Sequence record: MW822011
DNA from: Shigella phage TB004
Direction: 5' to 3' (one strand)
Length of the DNA: 64,000 nt
Shown here piece by piece: positions 57,690 to 60,907 of the stretch. Every line of letters begins with the position of its first letter. Within the stretch, counting starts at the first letter, position 1. The notes beneath the pieces were generated by a model. That model did not search any database, was not told where the DNA came from, and saw only the letters and a program-made list of their open reading frames with translations. The translations under genes and the position numbers were made by a program.

Positions 57690-57719
57690 GTTTACTTTTC
57701 CTCTTGACTGTGGTATAAT
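57690..57719 (+). promoter_or_regulatory. T4-type early promoter upstream of regB
   Basis: GTTTAC ... TGGTATAAT. Confidence 0.55.
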
Positions 57720-58215: not shown

Positions 58216-58761
58216 ATGAGAAAAGCACTACTCGCTGGTCTATTGGCCATTTCAATGATGGCACATAGCTCCGAGCATACTTTCAGTAATGTCCAACTCG
58301 ATAACATGCGTTACGCGTATCAATTCGGGGAACAATTTTCTAAGGATGGAAAATATAAAACACATAAAAATATCCACAAGAGCGGATTAGGTCATATAAT
58401 GGCTGCTATTTTATGGCAAGAAAGCTCCGGCGGAGTTAATTTAAAATCTAAACCAAAGCATCACGCCTATGGAATGTTCCAAAATTATTTGCCGACCATG
58501 CGAGCAAGAGTTAAGGAACTTGGTTATAATATGACCGATGCCGAAATAAAAAGAATGTTGAATAAACGGTCCAATTCAGCTTCCTGGGCGTACATTGAAC
58601 TTTCTTATTGGTTAAATATACATAAGGGCGATATAAGAAAAGCAATATCCTCTTATAATTCGGGATGGAATGTTAAAGCAGGTTCTAAATATGCTTCTGA
58701 AGTCCTAGAAAAGGCTAACTACCTTAAAAATAATAAACTACTGGAAATAGTAAATGACTAA
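58216..58761 (+). CDS. secreted protein, possible lytic transglycosylase-like (vs.1 position)
   Basis: 181 aa with N-terminal signal peptide MRKALLAGLLAISMMAHS. Confidence 0.5.
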   Translation: MRKALLAGLLAISMMAHSSEHTFSNVQLDNMRYAYQFGEQFSKDGKYKTHKNIHKSGLGHIMAAILWQESSGGVNLKSKPKHHAYGMFQNYLPTMRARVKELGYNMTDAEIKRMLNKRSNSASWAYIELSYWLNIHKGDIRKAISSYNSGWNVKAGSKYASEVLEKANYLKNNKLLEIVND

Positions 58762-59101
58762 AATTTTGGTTTTATGTATAGGATTAATTTCATTTTCTGC
58801 TTCTGCGTCAGCAGATACATCATATACTGAAATTAGAGAATATGTAAACCGTACTGCCGCGGATTATTGTGGGAAAAATAAAGCATGCCAAGCTGAATTT
58901 GCGCAGAAATTAATATATGCATATAAAGACGGAGAAAGAGATAAAACAAGTAGATACAAGAACGATACTTTATTAAAACGATATGCTAAAAAGTGGAATA
59001 CCTTAGAATGTTCAGTTGCGGAGGAGAAAGATAAAGCCGCTTGTCATTCAATGGTTGACCGTTTGGTAGATTCTTATAATCGAGGATTGAGTACTAGATG
59101 A
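58754..59101 (+). CDS. small secreted protein (vs position)
   Basis: 115 aa, signal peptide MTKILVLCIGLISFSASASA. Confidence 0.5.
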   Translation: MTKILVLCIGLISFSASASADTSYTEIREYVNRTAADYCGKNKACQAEFAQKLIYAYKDGERDKTSRYKNDTLLKRYAKKWNTLECSVAEEKDKAACHSMVDRLVDSYNRGLSTR

Positions 59102-59577
59102 TTGTAAAATATATCAAGGGCGATATTGTCGCCCTATTTCTTCAAGGTAATATTATTGCGCACGGGTGCAATTGTTTTCATACTATGGGTTCAGGTGTAG
59201 CGGGTCAATTAGCAAGGGCCTATCCTAAAATTTTAGAAATAGATAAAACCACTACTGAGTACGGTTCTCGCGATAAATTAGGCGATATGTCTATTGTTTT
59301 TAAACATAGTCCTACGGGATTTGGCATATGCTATAACCTGTATACGCAATACGAACCGGGTCCTAATCTTGATTATGGTGCTTTAGTAAACTGCATGATA
59401 GAATTAAATCTACAGGCAGAAACCCTTTTGTTTAAACCAGTAATTTACATTCCACGCATAGGTTGTGGTATTGCTGGCGGCGATTGGGATAAGGTTTCTA
59501 AATTAATCGACATGTTTACTCCTGATATTGATTTAATAGTGGTGGATTATGAAAGCACATTACCCGCATCCGTTTGA
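59098..59577 (+). CDS. macro-domain (ADP-ribose binding/processing) protein
   Basis: 159 aa; motifs AHGCNCFHTMGSGVAGQLA and IPRIGCGIAGGDW typical of macro domains. Confidence 0.7.
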   Translation: MIVKYIKGDIVALFLQGNIIAHGCNCFHTMGSGVAGQLARAYPKILEIDKTTTEYGSRDKLGDMSIVFKHSPTGFGICYNLYTQYEPGPNLDYGALVNCMIELNLQAETLLFKPVIYIPRIGCGIAGGDWDKVSKLIDMFTPDIDLIVVDYESTLPASV

Positions 59578-59761
59578 CCCTAAAAACAAAGCAGAAATTA
59601 TTCGTCAATGGGAACGCATTTGCCGTACTAAATGCCCAATTAATAGTCCACATGATGTAGATAAAGACTATATTGGAACATTCGTTGAATATACCTTTAT
59701 TGATAAGAAAGGTCGTAAACAGCACGTAGAAGAATATTGCTTAAAGGTTACATGGTTATGA
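59549..59761 (+). CDS. hypothetical protein
   Basis: 70 aa ORF. Confidence 0.45.
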   Translation: MKAHYPHPFDPKNKAEIIRQWERICRTKCPINSPHDVDKDYIGTFVEYTFIDKKGRKQHVEEYCLKVTWL

Positions 59762-59964
59762 GCCAAACTAGTATTCTTAAAAATGCGCATTGTGAAAAGT
59801 GTAAATGGCCTGTTGTTTTTGCTTTATGCAATGATGAAATGGCTTGTGATTTCGATTATTGGTGCTATTGTTCTAATAAAGGATGCATAAATCATAAAGG
59901 CGAAGGATTTTATTCGGGATTTTATCCTTATCCCGATTTCATTAAAGAAGGTAAACCAAAATGA
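59752..59964 (+). CDS. small Cys-rich protein (possible zinc binding)
   Basis: CEKCKW...CNDEMACDFDYWCYCSNKGC; ATG overlaps previous stop. Confidence 0.45.
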   Translation: MVMSQTSILKNAHCEKCKWPVVFALCNDEMACDFDYWCYCSNKGCINHKGEGFYSGFYPYPDFIKEGKPK

Positions 59965-60134
59965 ATAATTTTGAGTTACAATATGAAGTGTTACGTGAGC
60001 TTGATAATTTAATTGAACTCGCTGTTAATAAAGGTTTTGCCATTGGAATTGGTCAAAAAGATACTGATCATTTAACTATGGAAATATTTAAGCAAAAGCG
60101 AATTATTTTAAAACTTCTGGAAATTAATATATGA
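59961..60134 (+). CDS. small hypothetical ORF (57 aa), not in ORF track
   Basis: ATG at 59961; ATGA overlap with next gene. Confidence 0.4.
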   Translation: MNNFELQYEVLRELDNLIELAVNKGFAIGIGQKDTDHLTMEIFKQKRIILKLLEINI

Positions 60135-60316
60135 GTCTAAGCATTAGTCAGAAAAGTAGATTATTTGAGCTTATTCATGAACTTCTAGATGAGCATGCAG
60201 AAGCAAACACCTTTTATGATGAATACGGCCCGCTATCTCCCGAACAACAGGAAGAATTTGCTGACCGGTTTGATAAGAAAGAAAACGAATTAATAGCTTA
60301 TGTGAATACGCTTTAA
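60131..60316 (+). CDS. hypothetical protein
   Basis: 61 aa ORF upstream of tk. Confidence 0.5.
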   Translation: MSLSISQKSRLFELIHELLDEHAEANTFYDEYGPLSPEQQEEFADRFDKKENELIAYVNTL

Positions 60317-60325
60317 GAAGGTGAT

Positions 60326-60907
60326 ATGGCTAGTTTAATTTTTACTTATGCAGCAATGAATGCTGGAAAATCTGCTTCTCTTTTGACTGCTGCACATAAT
60401 TATAAAGAACGCGGAATGAGTGTATTAGTTCTTAAGCCTGCTATTGATACTCGCGATTCTGTTTGTGAAGTCGTTTCTCGCATTGGAATTAAACAGGAAG
60501 CGAATATTATTACGGATGATATGGATATTTTTGAGTTCTATAAATGGGCTGAAGCACAAAAAGATATTCATTGTGTATTTGTAGATGAAGCCCAGTTTTT
60601 AAAAACTGAACAAGTGCATCAATTAAGTCGAATTGTTGATACATATAATGTTCCTGTTATGGCTTATGGTCTAAGGACTGATTTCGCTGGAAAATTATTT
60701 GAAGGTTCTAAAGAACTTTTGGCGATTGCAGATAAACTTATTGAACTAAAGGCAGTTTGTCATTGCGGTAAAAAAGCGATTATGACGGCTCGATTAATGG
60801 AAGATGGAACACCAGTTAAAGAAGGTAATCAAATCTGTATTGGTGATGAAATTTATGTTTCTTTGTGCAGAAAACATTGGAATGAATTAACTAAAAAGCT
60901 CGGTTAG
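60326..60907 (+). CDS. tk: thymidine kinase
   Basis: 193 aa, P-loop AAMNAGKSASLL, C-terminal zinc-ribbon Cys pairs. Confidence 0.95.
   Translation: MASLIFTYAAMNAGKSASLLTAAHNYKERGMSVLVLKPAIDTRDSVCEVVSRIGIKQEANIITDDMDIFEFYKWAEAQKDIHCVFVDEAQFLKTEQVHQLSRIVDTYNVPVMAYGLRTDFAGKLFEGSKELLAIADKLIELKAVCHCGKKAIMTARLMEDGTPVKEGNQICIGDEIYVSLCRKHWNELTKKLG

What the first reader, a model, noticed from the sequence alone, without database searches (positions are those of the whole stretch)
59098..59577. Macro-domain protein in the tk-vs early region
Motifs GDIVALF…AHGCNCFHTMGSGVAGQL…IPRIGCGIAGGDWDKV are characteristic of macro domains (ADP-ribose binding / de-ADP-ribosylation). In a phage, such a protein is a candidate counter-measure to host ADP-ribosylation- or NAD-based defenses, or a regulator of the phage's own ADP-ribosyltransferases.
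Basis: partly seen in the sequence, partly recalled or inferred. Interest (0 to 1): 0.4.

Follow-up and report, generated by a model that had tools for sequence, protein, structure and literature searches.

The report
Phage T4-type Tk.4 (AdfM) macrodomain

Summary
The ORF at 59098-59577 (+) is real. It encodes a 159-aa single-domain macrodomain: Pfam Macro scores above its gathering threshold, and the AlphaFold2 model (pLDDT 93.9) matches TARG1, Poa1p, BT1257, DarG and SCO6735.

It is gene tk.4 of a Tequatrovirus, lying between vs and tk.3. Identical proteins are already in GenBank as "macro domain protein" or "phosphatase". A 2025 preprint found T4 tk.4 to be the single gene conditionally essential on DarTG2 hosts and named it AdfM.

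Three points refine this:
- The window carries a different allele, only 58% identical to T4 Tk.4 and 93% to Dhakavirus JS98. It sits in a ~465-bp cassette with T4-like flanks, and this allele has not been tested.
- The family has an invariant Gln where DarG and TARG1 have the catalytic Lys, as in SCO6735, which cleaves thymidine-linked ADP-ribose. It is not a DarG-type enzyme and is barely alignable to PhiKZ "AdfM".
- Its closest biochemically assayed relative (39%) is Adpp, an ADP-ribose-1''-phosphate phosphatase. No NARP1 partner genes occur in the window.

Verdict: already known, modest interest.

The parts
59098..59577 (+). tk.4 coding sequence: 159-aa single-domain macrodomain (Tk.4 / AdfM family). 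Family-invariant residues are H22 G23 N25 C26 G33 A35 D49 N80 Y82 Q84 P119 G122 G124 W130.
   Evidence: ORF and translation; Pfam Macro; PHROG 335; family alignment; AF2 model pLDDT 93.9; Foldseek PDB hits.
59082..59101 (+). Translation start region: GAGGA Shine-Dalgarno-like sequence at 59082-59086, and an ATGA overlap of the vs stop codon with the tk.4 start codon at 59098-59101, which suggests translational coupling with vs.
   Evidence: Read directly from the sequence. The same vs/tk.4 4-nt overlap is annotated in T4, Shfl2 and JS98. Coupling itself is inferred.
59136..59600 (+). Mosaic cassette of about 465 bp, of Dhakavirus (JS98) type, set in a T4-type backbone. It covers tk.4 codons ~14-159 and the first ~17 codons of tk.3.
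   Evidence: Identity to T4 DNA is 93-100% up to ~59140, 38-70% within 59141-59560, then 85-97%. Identity to JS98 is 80-97% across 59116-59595 but only 41-70% in vs and vs.1. Junctions were read from three-way alignments.
59118..59134 (+). Palindrome GGGCGATATTGTCGCCC in tk.4 codons 7-13, conserved in T4 and (with one loop change) in JS98. It lies immediately before the left mosaic junction.
   Evidence: Folding of 59075-59160 gave z=-1.43, not significant. Any role is speculative.
58754..59101 (+). Upstream neighbour vs (valyl-tRNA synthetase modifier, 115 aa), T4-type sequence.
59549..59761 (+). Downstream neighbour tk.3 (70 aa). Its start overlaps the last 29 nt of tk.4, as in JS98; T4 has a 4-nt overlap.
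57691..57719 (+). Best sigma-70-like promoter match (TTTACT-17-TATAAT, with TG) upstream of regB. It is a candidate early promoter for the closely packed regB-vs.1-vs-tk.4 gene string.
   Evidence: Promoter-like sites in the region are not more frequent than in shuffled sequence (15 found vs 18.7 expected), so this is only a candidate.

Best explanation
The ORF encodes Tk.4 (recently named AdfM in T4). It is a small early-region macrodomain enzyme of the TARG1/ALC1-like class. Proposed mechanism: the protein binds the ADP-ribose moiety through the conserved macrodomain loops (H22-G-C-N25-C, G31-S-G33, P119-R-I-G-C-G-I-A-G-G-D-W130) and hydrolyses the bond at C1'' of the distal ribose. Its biologically relevant substrate is most likely ADP-ribose attached to thymidine in phage single-stranded DNA by the host toxin DarT2. 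Removing it would restore replication, making the protein an orphan 'antitoxin' carried by the phage. Catalysis would not use the DarG/TARG1 lysine. The family has an invariant Gln84, held by Asn25, at that position, as in SCO6735, where Gln85 and Asn27 are required for cleaving dT-ADP-ribose through a water-mediated mechanism.

Shown here: the ORF, the macrodomain fold, the synteny, the conserved residues and the allele mosaic. Shown elsewhere for the T4 allele: the genetic requirement on DarTG2 hosts. Inferred: that the window allele does the same, and that the mechanism is enzymatic de-ADP-ribosylation of DNA.
For: - Macrodomain identity.
- Positional orthology with T4 tk.4 between vs and tk.3.
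- Similarity to T4 Tk.4: 58% identity over the full length, E=1e-70. All 14 family-invariant residues are present.
- T4 genetics: tk.4 was the single DarTG2-specific hit and its knockout sensitised T4 to DarTG2. T2/T4 lacking AdfA and AdfN remain DarTG2-resistant, which had predicted such a factor.
- Active-site equivalences: Q84 aligns with TARG1 K84 and with SCO6735 Gln85; H22=His24, N25=Asn27, G122/G124=Gly126/128.
- SCO6735 biochemistry: it cleaves dT-ADPr DNA, and Q85A and N27S abolish or nearly abolish activity.
- DarG models: weak but specific hits to NCBIfam and PADLOC DarG.
- Expression: T2 Tk.4, identical to the T4 protein, was detected in an infection proteome.
Against: - No biochemical assay exists for any Tk.4-type protein. 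The T4 preprint infers hydrolysis only.
- The window allele differs from the tested T4 protein at 42% of positions, mostly after residue 46.
- The closest biochemically characterised homologue is Adpp of Vibrio phage Gary (39%, E=1.6e-25). It is an ADPR-1''-phosphate phosphatase and shares the same H-x-C-N-C / N-x-Y-x-Q / G-C-G-L-A-G-G-D-W signature.
- The two SCO6735 lysines that position DNA (K34, K89) are not conserved; the window has S32 and G88.
- The protein is acidic, pI 5.0.
- PhiKZ AdfM, the phage macrodomain with in-vitro DNA de-ADP-ribosylation data, is Lys-type and barely alignable, so its data do not transfer.
Confidence: 0.6

Rival explanations
1. Its primary activity is ADP-ribose-1''-phosphate phosphatase (Poa1p/Adpp-like), acting on a small molecule rather than on DNA. 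It would clear ADPR-1''P made by RES-type NAD+ phosphorylases such as aRES, or by RNA-repair or tRNA-splicing-type reactions. This could also coexist with DNA de-ADP-ribosylation in one promiscuous active site.
For: - Adpp of Vibrio phage Gary, shown by LC-MS to convert ADPR-1P to ADPR, is 39% identical to the window protein (E=1.6e-25). That is closer than any other biochemically characterised protein, and Adpp shares the family signature.
- Poa1p matches by sequence (1.6e-9) and by fold. Poa1p His23 aligns with the invariant H22.
- PHROG 335 and RefSeq name the protein 'phosphatase'.
- More distant homologues sit beside NARP1 genes (Liucustia) or beside polynucleotide kinase and RNA ligase (Vibrio phage D491s).
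Against: - No Adps or Namat (NARP1) genes were found in the window by tblastn.
- No Escherichia, Shigella, Enterobacteria or Klebsiella phages appear in the preprint's table of NARP1-associated macro proteins. The phosphatase would therefore have no downstream pathway to feed.
- The only phenotype reported for T4 tk.4 is DarTG2-specific.
- Poa1p Phe152 is Ala126 here, as in SCO6735 and BT1257.
Confidence: 0.2
2. It protects mainly without catalysis, either by binding and inhibiting DarT2 directly (interaction-inhibition) or by sequestering ADP-ribosylated DNA or ADP-ribose.
For: Catalytically dead SCO6735 Q85A, DarG K80A and TARG1 K84A still inhibit DarT in vitro, with SCO6735 the strongest. 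The variable surface segment between the two alleles (residues ~46-75 and 121-155) could reflect co-evolution with a protein partner.
Against: Active-site residues (H22, N25, Q84, G122, G124) are invariant across 68 diverse homologues, which argues for selection on catalysis. The protein lacks the C-terminal DarT-binding domain of DarG: it is 159 aa against a 338-position DarG profile.
Confidence: 0.07
3. It is an eraser or regulator for the phage's own ADP-ribosyltransferases (Alt, ModA, ModB), as the first reader also suggested.
For: T4-like phages encode three ADP-ribosyltransferases (established knowledge), and a co-encoded hydrolase would make that modification reversible.
Against: - Alt and Mod modify arginine, a linkage not known to be cleaved by TARG1/ALC1-like macrodomains (established knowledge; the arginine-specific macrodomain MavL is a separate type, see the title listed).
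- tk.4 is dispensable on plain E. coli K-12 and becomes required only with DarTG2.
- There is no gene linkage to alt or mod in this region.
Confidence: 0.05
4. It is an O-acetyl-ADP-ribose deacetylase or RNase III regulator (YmdB/MacroD-like), as some automatic annotations say.
For: JGI and some GenBank names for homologues read 'O-acetyl-ADP-ribose deacetylase (regulator of RNase III)' or 'RNase III inhibitor'.
Against: The NCBIfam O-acetyl-ADP-ribose deacetylase model scores 15.7 bits against a cut-off of 291. The structural and sequence neighbours are the TARG1/Poa1p/SCO6735 class, not MacroD/YmdB. The name derives from a broad COG label.
Confidence: 0.03

Closest known systems
T4 Tk.4 = AdfM (anti-DarT factor Macrodomain; bioRxiv 10.1101/2025.11.20.689424)
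   Same: Same locus between vs and tk.3, the same 155-159-aa single macrodomain, and 58% identity over the full length. All family-invariant residues are shared.
   Different: It is a different allele. Divergence is concentrated after residue 46. The window keeps the consensus phosphate-binding loop GIAGGDW where T4 has GIGKGNW. The window allele is of Dhakavirus JS98 type (93%) and has not been tested against DarTG2.
SCO6735 of Streptomyces coelicolor (PDB 5E3B; PMC9411070)
   Same: TARG1/ALC1-like macrodomain with Gln in place of the catalytic Lys. His24, Asn27, Gln85 and Gly126/128 are conserved as H22, N25, Q84 and G122/124, and it shares the PRIGCG[IL]AGGxW loop. It is a stand-alone enzyme that neutralises DarT by cleaving dT-ADPr.
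   Different: Only 25% identical. The DNA-positioning residues Lys34 and Lys89 are not conserved (S32, G88). It is bacterial and chromosomal, not from a phage.
Adpp of Vibrio phage Gary (NARP1-AP pathway; bioRxiv 10.64898/2026.01.28.702374) and yeast Poa1p (PDB 6LFQ)
   Same: Adpp is 39% identical and shares the H-x-C-N-C / N-x-Y-x-Q / GCGLAGGDW signature. It is a phage-encoded single macrodomain with an anti-defence role. Poa1p is a top sequence and fold match.
   Different: Adpp sits inside an Adps-Namat (NARP1) operon and acts on the small molecule ADPR-1''P. The window gene has no such neighbours. Poa1p has Phe152 where the window has Ala126.
DarG antitoxin macrodomain (PDB 5M31/5M3I) and PhiKZ gp104 'AdfM' (Cell Rep 2026, PMC13309987)
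   Same: Macrodomain fold (TM 0.73-0.78). The proposed substrate, DarT2-made thymidine-ADP-ribose on ssDNA, is the same, and both play the antitoxin-like counter-defence role.
   Different: DarG and gp104 have the catalytic Lys (PTK motif); the window has Gln. DarG has a second, DarT-binding domain. The DarG equivalog model scores 27.7 bits against a cut-off of 250. gp104 aligns over only a 23-residue patch. The name 'AdfM' has thus been given to two macrodomain lineages with only marginal sequence similarity.
Human TARG1 (PDB 4J5R)
   Same: Best Foldseek match (E=6e-10, TM 0.74/0.83). TARG1 also removes DarT-type thymidine ADP-ribose (title and abstract of PMC8501950, listed).
   Different: The Lys84/Asp125 catalytic dyad is replaced by Gln84/Ala126. 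Identity is 23%.

Membership tests
Macro domain superfamily (Pfam PF01661) | Profile score above Pfam's gathering threshold over the whole domain | tested here: met
   32 bits against a cut-off of 22, profile positions 2-117 of 118.
Macro domain superfamily (Pfam PF01661) | Three-layer alpha/beta macrodomain fold | tested here: met
   AF2 model with pLDDT 93.9 and pTM 0.89. 157 PDB macrodomain chains match at E<=1e-3, with top TM-scores of 0.7-0.83.
Macro domain superfamily (Pfam PF01661) | Binding of ADP-ribose | not testable with these tools
   Only the conserved binding loops can be shown. A binding assay is needed.
T4 Tk.4 / AdfM (anti-DarTG2 factor) | Positional orthology: gene between vs and tk.3 in the regB-tk early region of a Tevenvirinae genome | tested here: met
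   Same gene order in the window, Shfl2, T4 and JS98.
T4 Tk.4 / AdfM (anti-DarTG2 factor) | Full-length sequence homology to T4 Tk.4 | tested here: met
   58% identity, 155 of 155 residues aligned with no gaps, E=1e-70.
T4 Tk.4 / AdfM (anti-DarTG2 factor) | Required for plating on DarTG2-expressing hosts | not testable with these tools
   Shown only for the T4 allele.
DarG antitoxin (NCBIfam NF048014, PADLOC DarG) | Score at or above the equivalog cut-off | tested here: not met
   27.7 bits against a cut-off of 250. Only the N-terminal ~142 of 338 profile positions match.
DarG antitoxin (NCBIfam NF048014, PADLOC DarG) | Catalytic lysine (TaqDarG Lys80, equivalent to TARG1 Lys84) | tested here: not met
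   The family has an invariant Gln84 at this column.
DarG antitoxin (NCBIfam NF048014, PADLOC DarG) | C-terminal DarT-binding domain and an adjacent darT gene | tested here: not met
   The protein is a 159-aa single domain, and its neighbours are vs and tk.3.
TARG1-type hydrolase | Lys84/Asp125 catalytic dyad | tested here: not met
   Profile alignment puts Q84 and A126 at these positions.
SCO6735-type (Gln-type) dT-ADPr hydrolase | His24, Asn27, Gln85, Gly126 and Gly128 equivalents | tested here: met
   H22, N25, Q84, G122 and G124 are all invariant in the family.
SCO6735-type (Gln-type) dT-ADPr hydrolase | DNA-positioning lysines Lys34 and Lys89 | tested here: not met
   The aligned positions are S32 and G88.
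SCO6735-type (Gln-type) dT-ADPr hydrolase | Cleavage of thymidine-linked ADP-ribose on ssDNA | not testable with these tools
   Needs a gel-shift assay on a DarT2-modified oligonucleotide.
Adpp / NARP1-AP phosphatase | Homology to Vibrio phage Gary Adpp | tested here: met
   39% identity over 142 aa, E=1.6e-25, with shared signature motifs.
Adpp / NARP1-AP phosphatase | Location in or next to an Adps-Namat (NARP1) operon | tested here: not met
   No tblastn hit to Adps or Namat anywhere in the 64-kb window. No coliphages appear in the preprint's NARP1-macro table. The rest of the genome was not available.
Adpp / NARP1-AP phosphatase | ADPR-1''-phosphate phosphatase activity | not testable with these tools
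   Needs an enzymatic assay (LC-MS, as described).
Poa1p-like macrodomain | Residues probed in the Poa1p mutant structures (His23, Ser30, Phe152) | tested here: inconclusive
   His23 aligns with H22 (conserved), Ser30 with T29 (conservative change) and Phe152 with A126 (not conserved). The offsets were derived from the alignment and the mutant names.
PhiKZ gp104 AdfM (DarG2-like phage macrodomain) | Detectable full-length homology | tested here: not met
   BLASTP aligns only a 23-residue patch (E=0.001) and a second weak patch.
MacroD/YmdB O-acetyl-ADP-ribose deacetylase | NCBIfam equivalog score | tested here: not met
   15.7 bits against a cut-off of 291.

The most novel reading that the evidence does not exclude
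Tk.4-family macrodomains are general C1''-hydrolases that serve two anti-defence roles with one Gln-type active site. One role is removing DarT2-installed ADP-ribose from thymidine in phage DNA. The other is dephosphorylating the ADPR-1''-phosphate made by RES-type NAD+ phosphorylases. The sharp allele replacement seen here (a Dhakavirus-type cassette in a T4-type backbone, with at least three allele classes circulating among T-even phages) would then reflect selection for different substrate or DarT2-variant specificities.
Probability: 0.2. Interest if true: 0.55.

Novelty: already known. Interest (0 to 1): 0.28.

Why it matters
This is a known gene, so the value lies in calibration and in two refinements.

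- **Annotation transfer.** The anti-DarTG2 label now attached to T4 tk.4 rests on one allele. At least 312 sequenced phage records carry the 58%-identical allele found here. That is at least as many as carry the T4 type at 90% identity or more (224 records). Whether protection transfers to this allele is an open and easily tested question.
- **Mechanism.** The family lacks the DarG/TARG1 lysine, and its nearest assayed relative is an ADPR-1''-phosphate phosphatase. The assumed mechanism, "like DarG", is therefore unproven. The name AdfM also currently covers two macrodomain lineages that are barely alignable.

Resolving this would show how much substrate range one small viral macrodomain has. 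That question also applies to coronavirus and alphavirus macrodomains.

Tried and rejected
- **Transferring the PhiKZ AdfM biochemistry.** Rejected. gp104 is Lys-type and aligns over only 23 residues.
- **Filing the protein as DarG.** Rejected on score, domain architecture and catalytic residue.
- **Looking for NARP1 partner genes** to support the phosphatase rival. None were found in the window, and no coliphages appear in the published NARP1-macro table.
- **Looking for a DarT neighbour** next to a bacterial homologue (Pelagimonas, P0094). The gene is stand-alone there, so this says nothing about origin.
- **Promoter and terminator scan.** Promoter-like sites are no more frequent than in shuffled sequence. 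The 'terminator-like' hairpins at 59117-59135 and 59155-59172 lie inside the coding sequence, and the local fold is not significant (z=-1.43).
- **Net charge as a discriminator of DNA-acting enzymes.** Uninformative. Tk.4 has pI 5.0, but PhiKZ gp104, which does act on DNA, has pI 5.05.
- **Finding which Adpp residues were mutated** in the aRES preprint. They are not recoverable from the text or the supplements.
- **First structure job.** It was rerun without that sequence.
- **TARG1 sequence.** The K84/D125 equivalence does not rest on that. It rests on the PDB-derived alignment.
Full report
**Observation.** The window has an ATG-initiated ORF at 59098-59577 on the + strand, encoding 159 aa. 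The start codon overlaps the stop codon of the upstream gene (ATGA at 59098-59101) and is preceded by GAGGA at 59082-59086. The protein matches Pfam Macro (PF01661) above the gathering threshold: 32 bits against 22, E=1.3e-7, covering nearly the whole profile. It matches PHROG 335 ("phosphatase") at 1e-71. It also matches solved macrodomains by sequence: BT1257 at 4e-10, Poa1p at 1.6e-9, SCO6735 at 8.5e-8, M. tuberculosis DarG at 5e-5 and TARG1 at 0.01.

**Identity and context.** The surrounding DNA is 97% identical to many Tequatrovirus genomes, including EcNP1, Shfl2 and HY01. The gene order is regB, vs.1 (58216-58761), vs (58754-59101), this ORF, tk.3 (59549-59761), three small ORFs, then tk (60326-60907). 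That is the annotated order in Shfl2, T4 and JS98, where this gene is called tk.4. Proteins 100% identical to the window protein are already in GenBank, for example as "macro domain protein" in vB_EcoM_OE5505.

**What is known about the gene.**
- A November 2025 preprint (HIDEN-SEQ, 10.1101/2025.11.20.689424) found tk.4 to be the single significant conditionally essential T4 gene on E. coli expressing DarTG2.
- It confirmed that a clean knockout sensitises T4 to DarTG2, and named the gene adfM.
- It proposed, but did not show, enzymatic removal of ADP-ribose from DNA.
- Earlier work had shown that T2 and T4 lacking AdfA and AdfN remain DarTG2-resistant, and had predicted a further factor.
- T2 Tk.4 protein was detected in an infection proteome. 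It is identical to the T4 protein.

**The window carries a different allele.** The window protein is only 58% identical to T4 Tk.4, but 93% identical to Tk.4 of the Dhakavirus JS98.

At the DNA level:
- Against T4, the window is 93-100% identical through regB, vs.1 and vs up to about 59140. Identity falls to 38-70% across 59141-59560 and returns to 85-97% in tk.3.
- Against JS98 the pattern is the reverse: 80-97% within 59116-59595 and 41-70% in vs and vs.1.

Three-way alignments place the junctions:
- The left junction lies immediately after a conserved palindrome, GGGCGATATTGTCGCCC (59118-59134).
- The right junction lies at about 59595-59605, inside tk.3.

So a cassette of about 465 bp of Dhakavirus type sits in a T4-type backbone. 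In the phage collection, 312 records carry the window-type allele at 90% identity or more. For the T4 type, 224 records are at 90% or more and 159 at 80-90%. The differences between the two alleles are concentrated after residue 46. In the phosphate-binding loop, the window allele keeps the family consensus GIAGGDW where T4 has GIGKGNW.

**Fold and class.** An AlphaFold2 model built from a 68-sequence alignment is confident (pLDDT 93.9, pTM 0.89). Its best Foldseek matches in the PDB are:
- TARG1 (E=6e-10, TM 0.74/0.83)
- Poa1p
- BT1257
- the T. aquaticus and M. tuberculosis DarG macrodomains
- SCO6735

All of these belong to the TARG1/ALC1-like class, and coronavirus and alphavirus macrodomains rank lower. 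A profile of the family gives the same neighbours by sequence: BT1257 3e-19, TARG1 1e-16, SCO6735 2e-16, Poa1p 8e-14 and DarG 2e-11.

**Active site.** Across 68 homologues reaching down to 38% identity, the invariant residues are H22, G23, N25, C26, G33, A35, D49, N80, Y82, Q84, P119, G122, G124 and W130.
- The profile alignment to TARG1 puts Q84 at the catalytic Lys84 and A126 at Asp125. The TARG1 dyad and the DarG lysine are therefore absent.
- An alignment of family member P0094 to SCO6735 (PDB 5E3B) puts the invariant Gln on chain residue 105. That is native Gln85 if the chain carries a 20-residue tag, an offset I inferred rather than looked up. On the same numbering, H22 corresponds to His24, N25 to Asn27, and G122/G124 to Gly126/Gly128.
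- The SCO6735 paper (PMC9411070) shows that this enzyme cleaves thymidine-linked ADP-ribose on DNA without the lysine. Q85A abolishes and N27S nearly abolishes activity. It proposes a water-mediated mechanism in which Gln85 positions the distal ribose.
- The two SCO6735 lysines that position DNA (K34, K89) are not conserved; the window has S32 and G88.

The window protein is thus a Gln-type enzyme, mechanistically closest to SCO6735 and not to DarG.

[quoted passage not shown] Adpp converts ADPR-1''-phosphate, the product of the aRES defence, to ADP-ribose so that NARP1 can rebuild NAD+.

I recovered the Adpp sequence from that preprint's supplementary table. It is 39% identical to the window protein (E=1.6e-25). 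For comparison, BT1257 is 27%, SCO6735 25%, DarG 26% and TARG1 23% identical. Adpp shares the H-x-C-N-C / N-x-Y-x-Q / GCGLAGGDW signature. A 33%-identical homologue in Acinetobacter phage Liucustia lies directly after Adps-like and Namat genes and is listed in the same table. Another, in Vibrio phage D491s, lies two genes downstream of polynucleotide kinase and near an RNA ligase.

One protein family has therefore been given two experimentally based functions within months. For the window gene the phosphatase role lacks its context. There are no Adps or Namat genes in the 64-kb window. No Escherichia, Shigella, Enterobacteria or Klebsiella phages appear in the NARP1-macro table. The two activities could still coexist in one active site.

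**What it is not.**
- It is not a DarG. It scores 27.7 bits against a cut-off of 250, has one domain instead of two, and has Gln instead of Lys.
- It is not related in any useful way to PhiKZ gp104. That protein is also named AdfM and has in-vitro DNA de-ADP-ribosylation data, but BLASTP aligns only a 23-residue patch and gp104 has the DarG-type PTK motif.
- It is not a MacroD/YmdB-type deacetylase (15.7 bits against a cut-off of 291), although some automatic annotations use that name.

**Most likely mechanism.** The gene lies in a tightly packed string of ORFs downstream of regB. The best candidate promoter in the region is at 57691-57719, although promoter-like matches are not enriched over shuffled sequence. 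Early expression is assumed from what is established for this region of T4, not shown here.

In the proposed mechanism, the protein binds ADP-ribose attached by host DarT2 to thymidine in single-stranded phage DNA. It hydrolyses the C1''-N bond using the Asn25/Gln84-positioned, water-mediated chemistry described for SCO6735. That releases ADP-ribose and restores replication.

Shown here: the fold, the conserved residues, the orthology and the mosaic. Shown elsewhere: the T4 genetic requirement, and the SCO6735 chemistry. Inferred: transfer of function to this allele, and the enzymatic step itself. I put this at 0.6. The rivals are the phosphatase-first reading at 0.2, non-catalytic inhibition at 0.07, an eraser of the phage's own ADP-ribosyltransferases at 0.05, and an O-acetyl-ADP-ribose deacetylase or RNase III regulator at 0.03.

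**Novelty and score.** The gene, its macrodomain nature and its anti-defence role are already known, so novelty is "already known" and interest is modest (0.28). Three things remain open and easily testable:
- whether the common Dhakavirus-type allele protects against DarTG2;
- whether Tk.4-type enzymes act on DNA, on ADPR-1''-phosphate, or on both;
- why this locus is an allele-swapping hotspot.

Noticed in passing
window 59136-59600: The body of tk.4 is a Dhakavirus (JS98)-type cassette with sharp junctions in an otherwise T4-type region. Several allele classes of tk.4 circulate among T-even phages: 312 records carry the window type at 90% identity or more, 224 carry the T4 type at 90% or more, and 159 are 80-90% identical to the T4 protein.
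   Followed up: yes
window 59118-59134: A perfect palindrome, GGGCGATATTGTCGCCC, lies in codons 7-13 of tk.4. It is conserved in T4 and JS98 and sits exactly at the left recombination junction. The scan flagged it as terminator-like, but the local fold is not significant (z=-1.43).
   Followed up: partly
window 59737-60316: Between tk.3 and tk the window has ORFs of 75, 57 and 61 aa where T4 has tk.2 and tk.1, and this stretch is only 13-50% identical to T4 DNA. The 75-aa ORF is cysteine-rich (CEKC...CNDEMAC...CYCSNKGC) and resembles a small zinc-binding protein. It is annotated only as hypothetical (RB32 orf111c-like) in Shfl2 and JS98.
   Followed up: no
window 58754-59101 (vs) and 58216-58761 (vs.1): Both upstream proteins begin with signal-peptide-like hydrophobic N-termini (MTKILVLCIGLISFSASASA and MRKALLAGLLAISMMAHS). 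That is odd for a 'valyl-tRNA synthetase modifier'. vs.1 is annotated as an SLT-type transglycosylase in one relative. The HIDEN-SEQ preprint reports that vs is the most depleted T4 gene in minimal medium.
   Followed up: no
literature (PMC13309987 vs bioRxiv 10.1101/2025.11.20.689424): The name AdfM has been given independently to two phage macrodomains. PhiKZ gp104 is DarG-like, Lys-type and tested in vitro. T4 Tk.4 is Gln-type and has genetic evidence only. They share only marginal sequence similarity (a 23-residue BLASTP patch, E=0.001), so annotation transfer between them would be misleading.
   Followed up: yes
L005 (Acinetobacter phage Liucustia) 901-4474; L004 (Vibrio phage D491s) 1-4495: Distant Tk.4 homologues (33-35% identical) sit in different functional neighbourhoods. 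In Liucustia the homologue lies directly after Adps-like and Namat genes (NARP1), with RNA ligase 2 upstream. In D491s it lies two genes downstream of polynucleotide kinase, with an RNA ligase further upstream. This suggests the family is used for small-molecule ADP-ribose metabolism or RNA repair in other phages.
   Followed up: partly
window 59549-59577: tk.3 starts 29 nt before the end of tk.4, the same arrangement as in JS98; T4 has a 4-nt overlap. The four extra C-terminal residues of this allele (156-159, low pLDDT) are encoded entirely within the overlap.
   Followed up: partly
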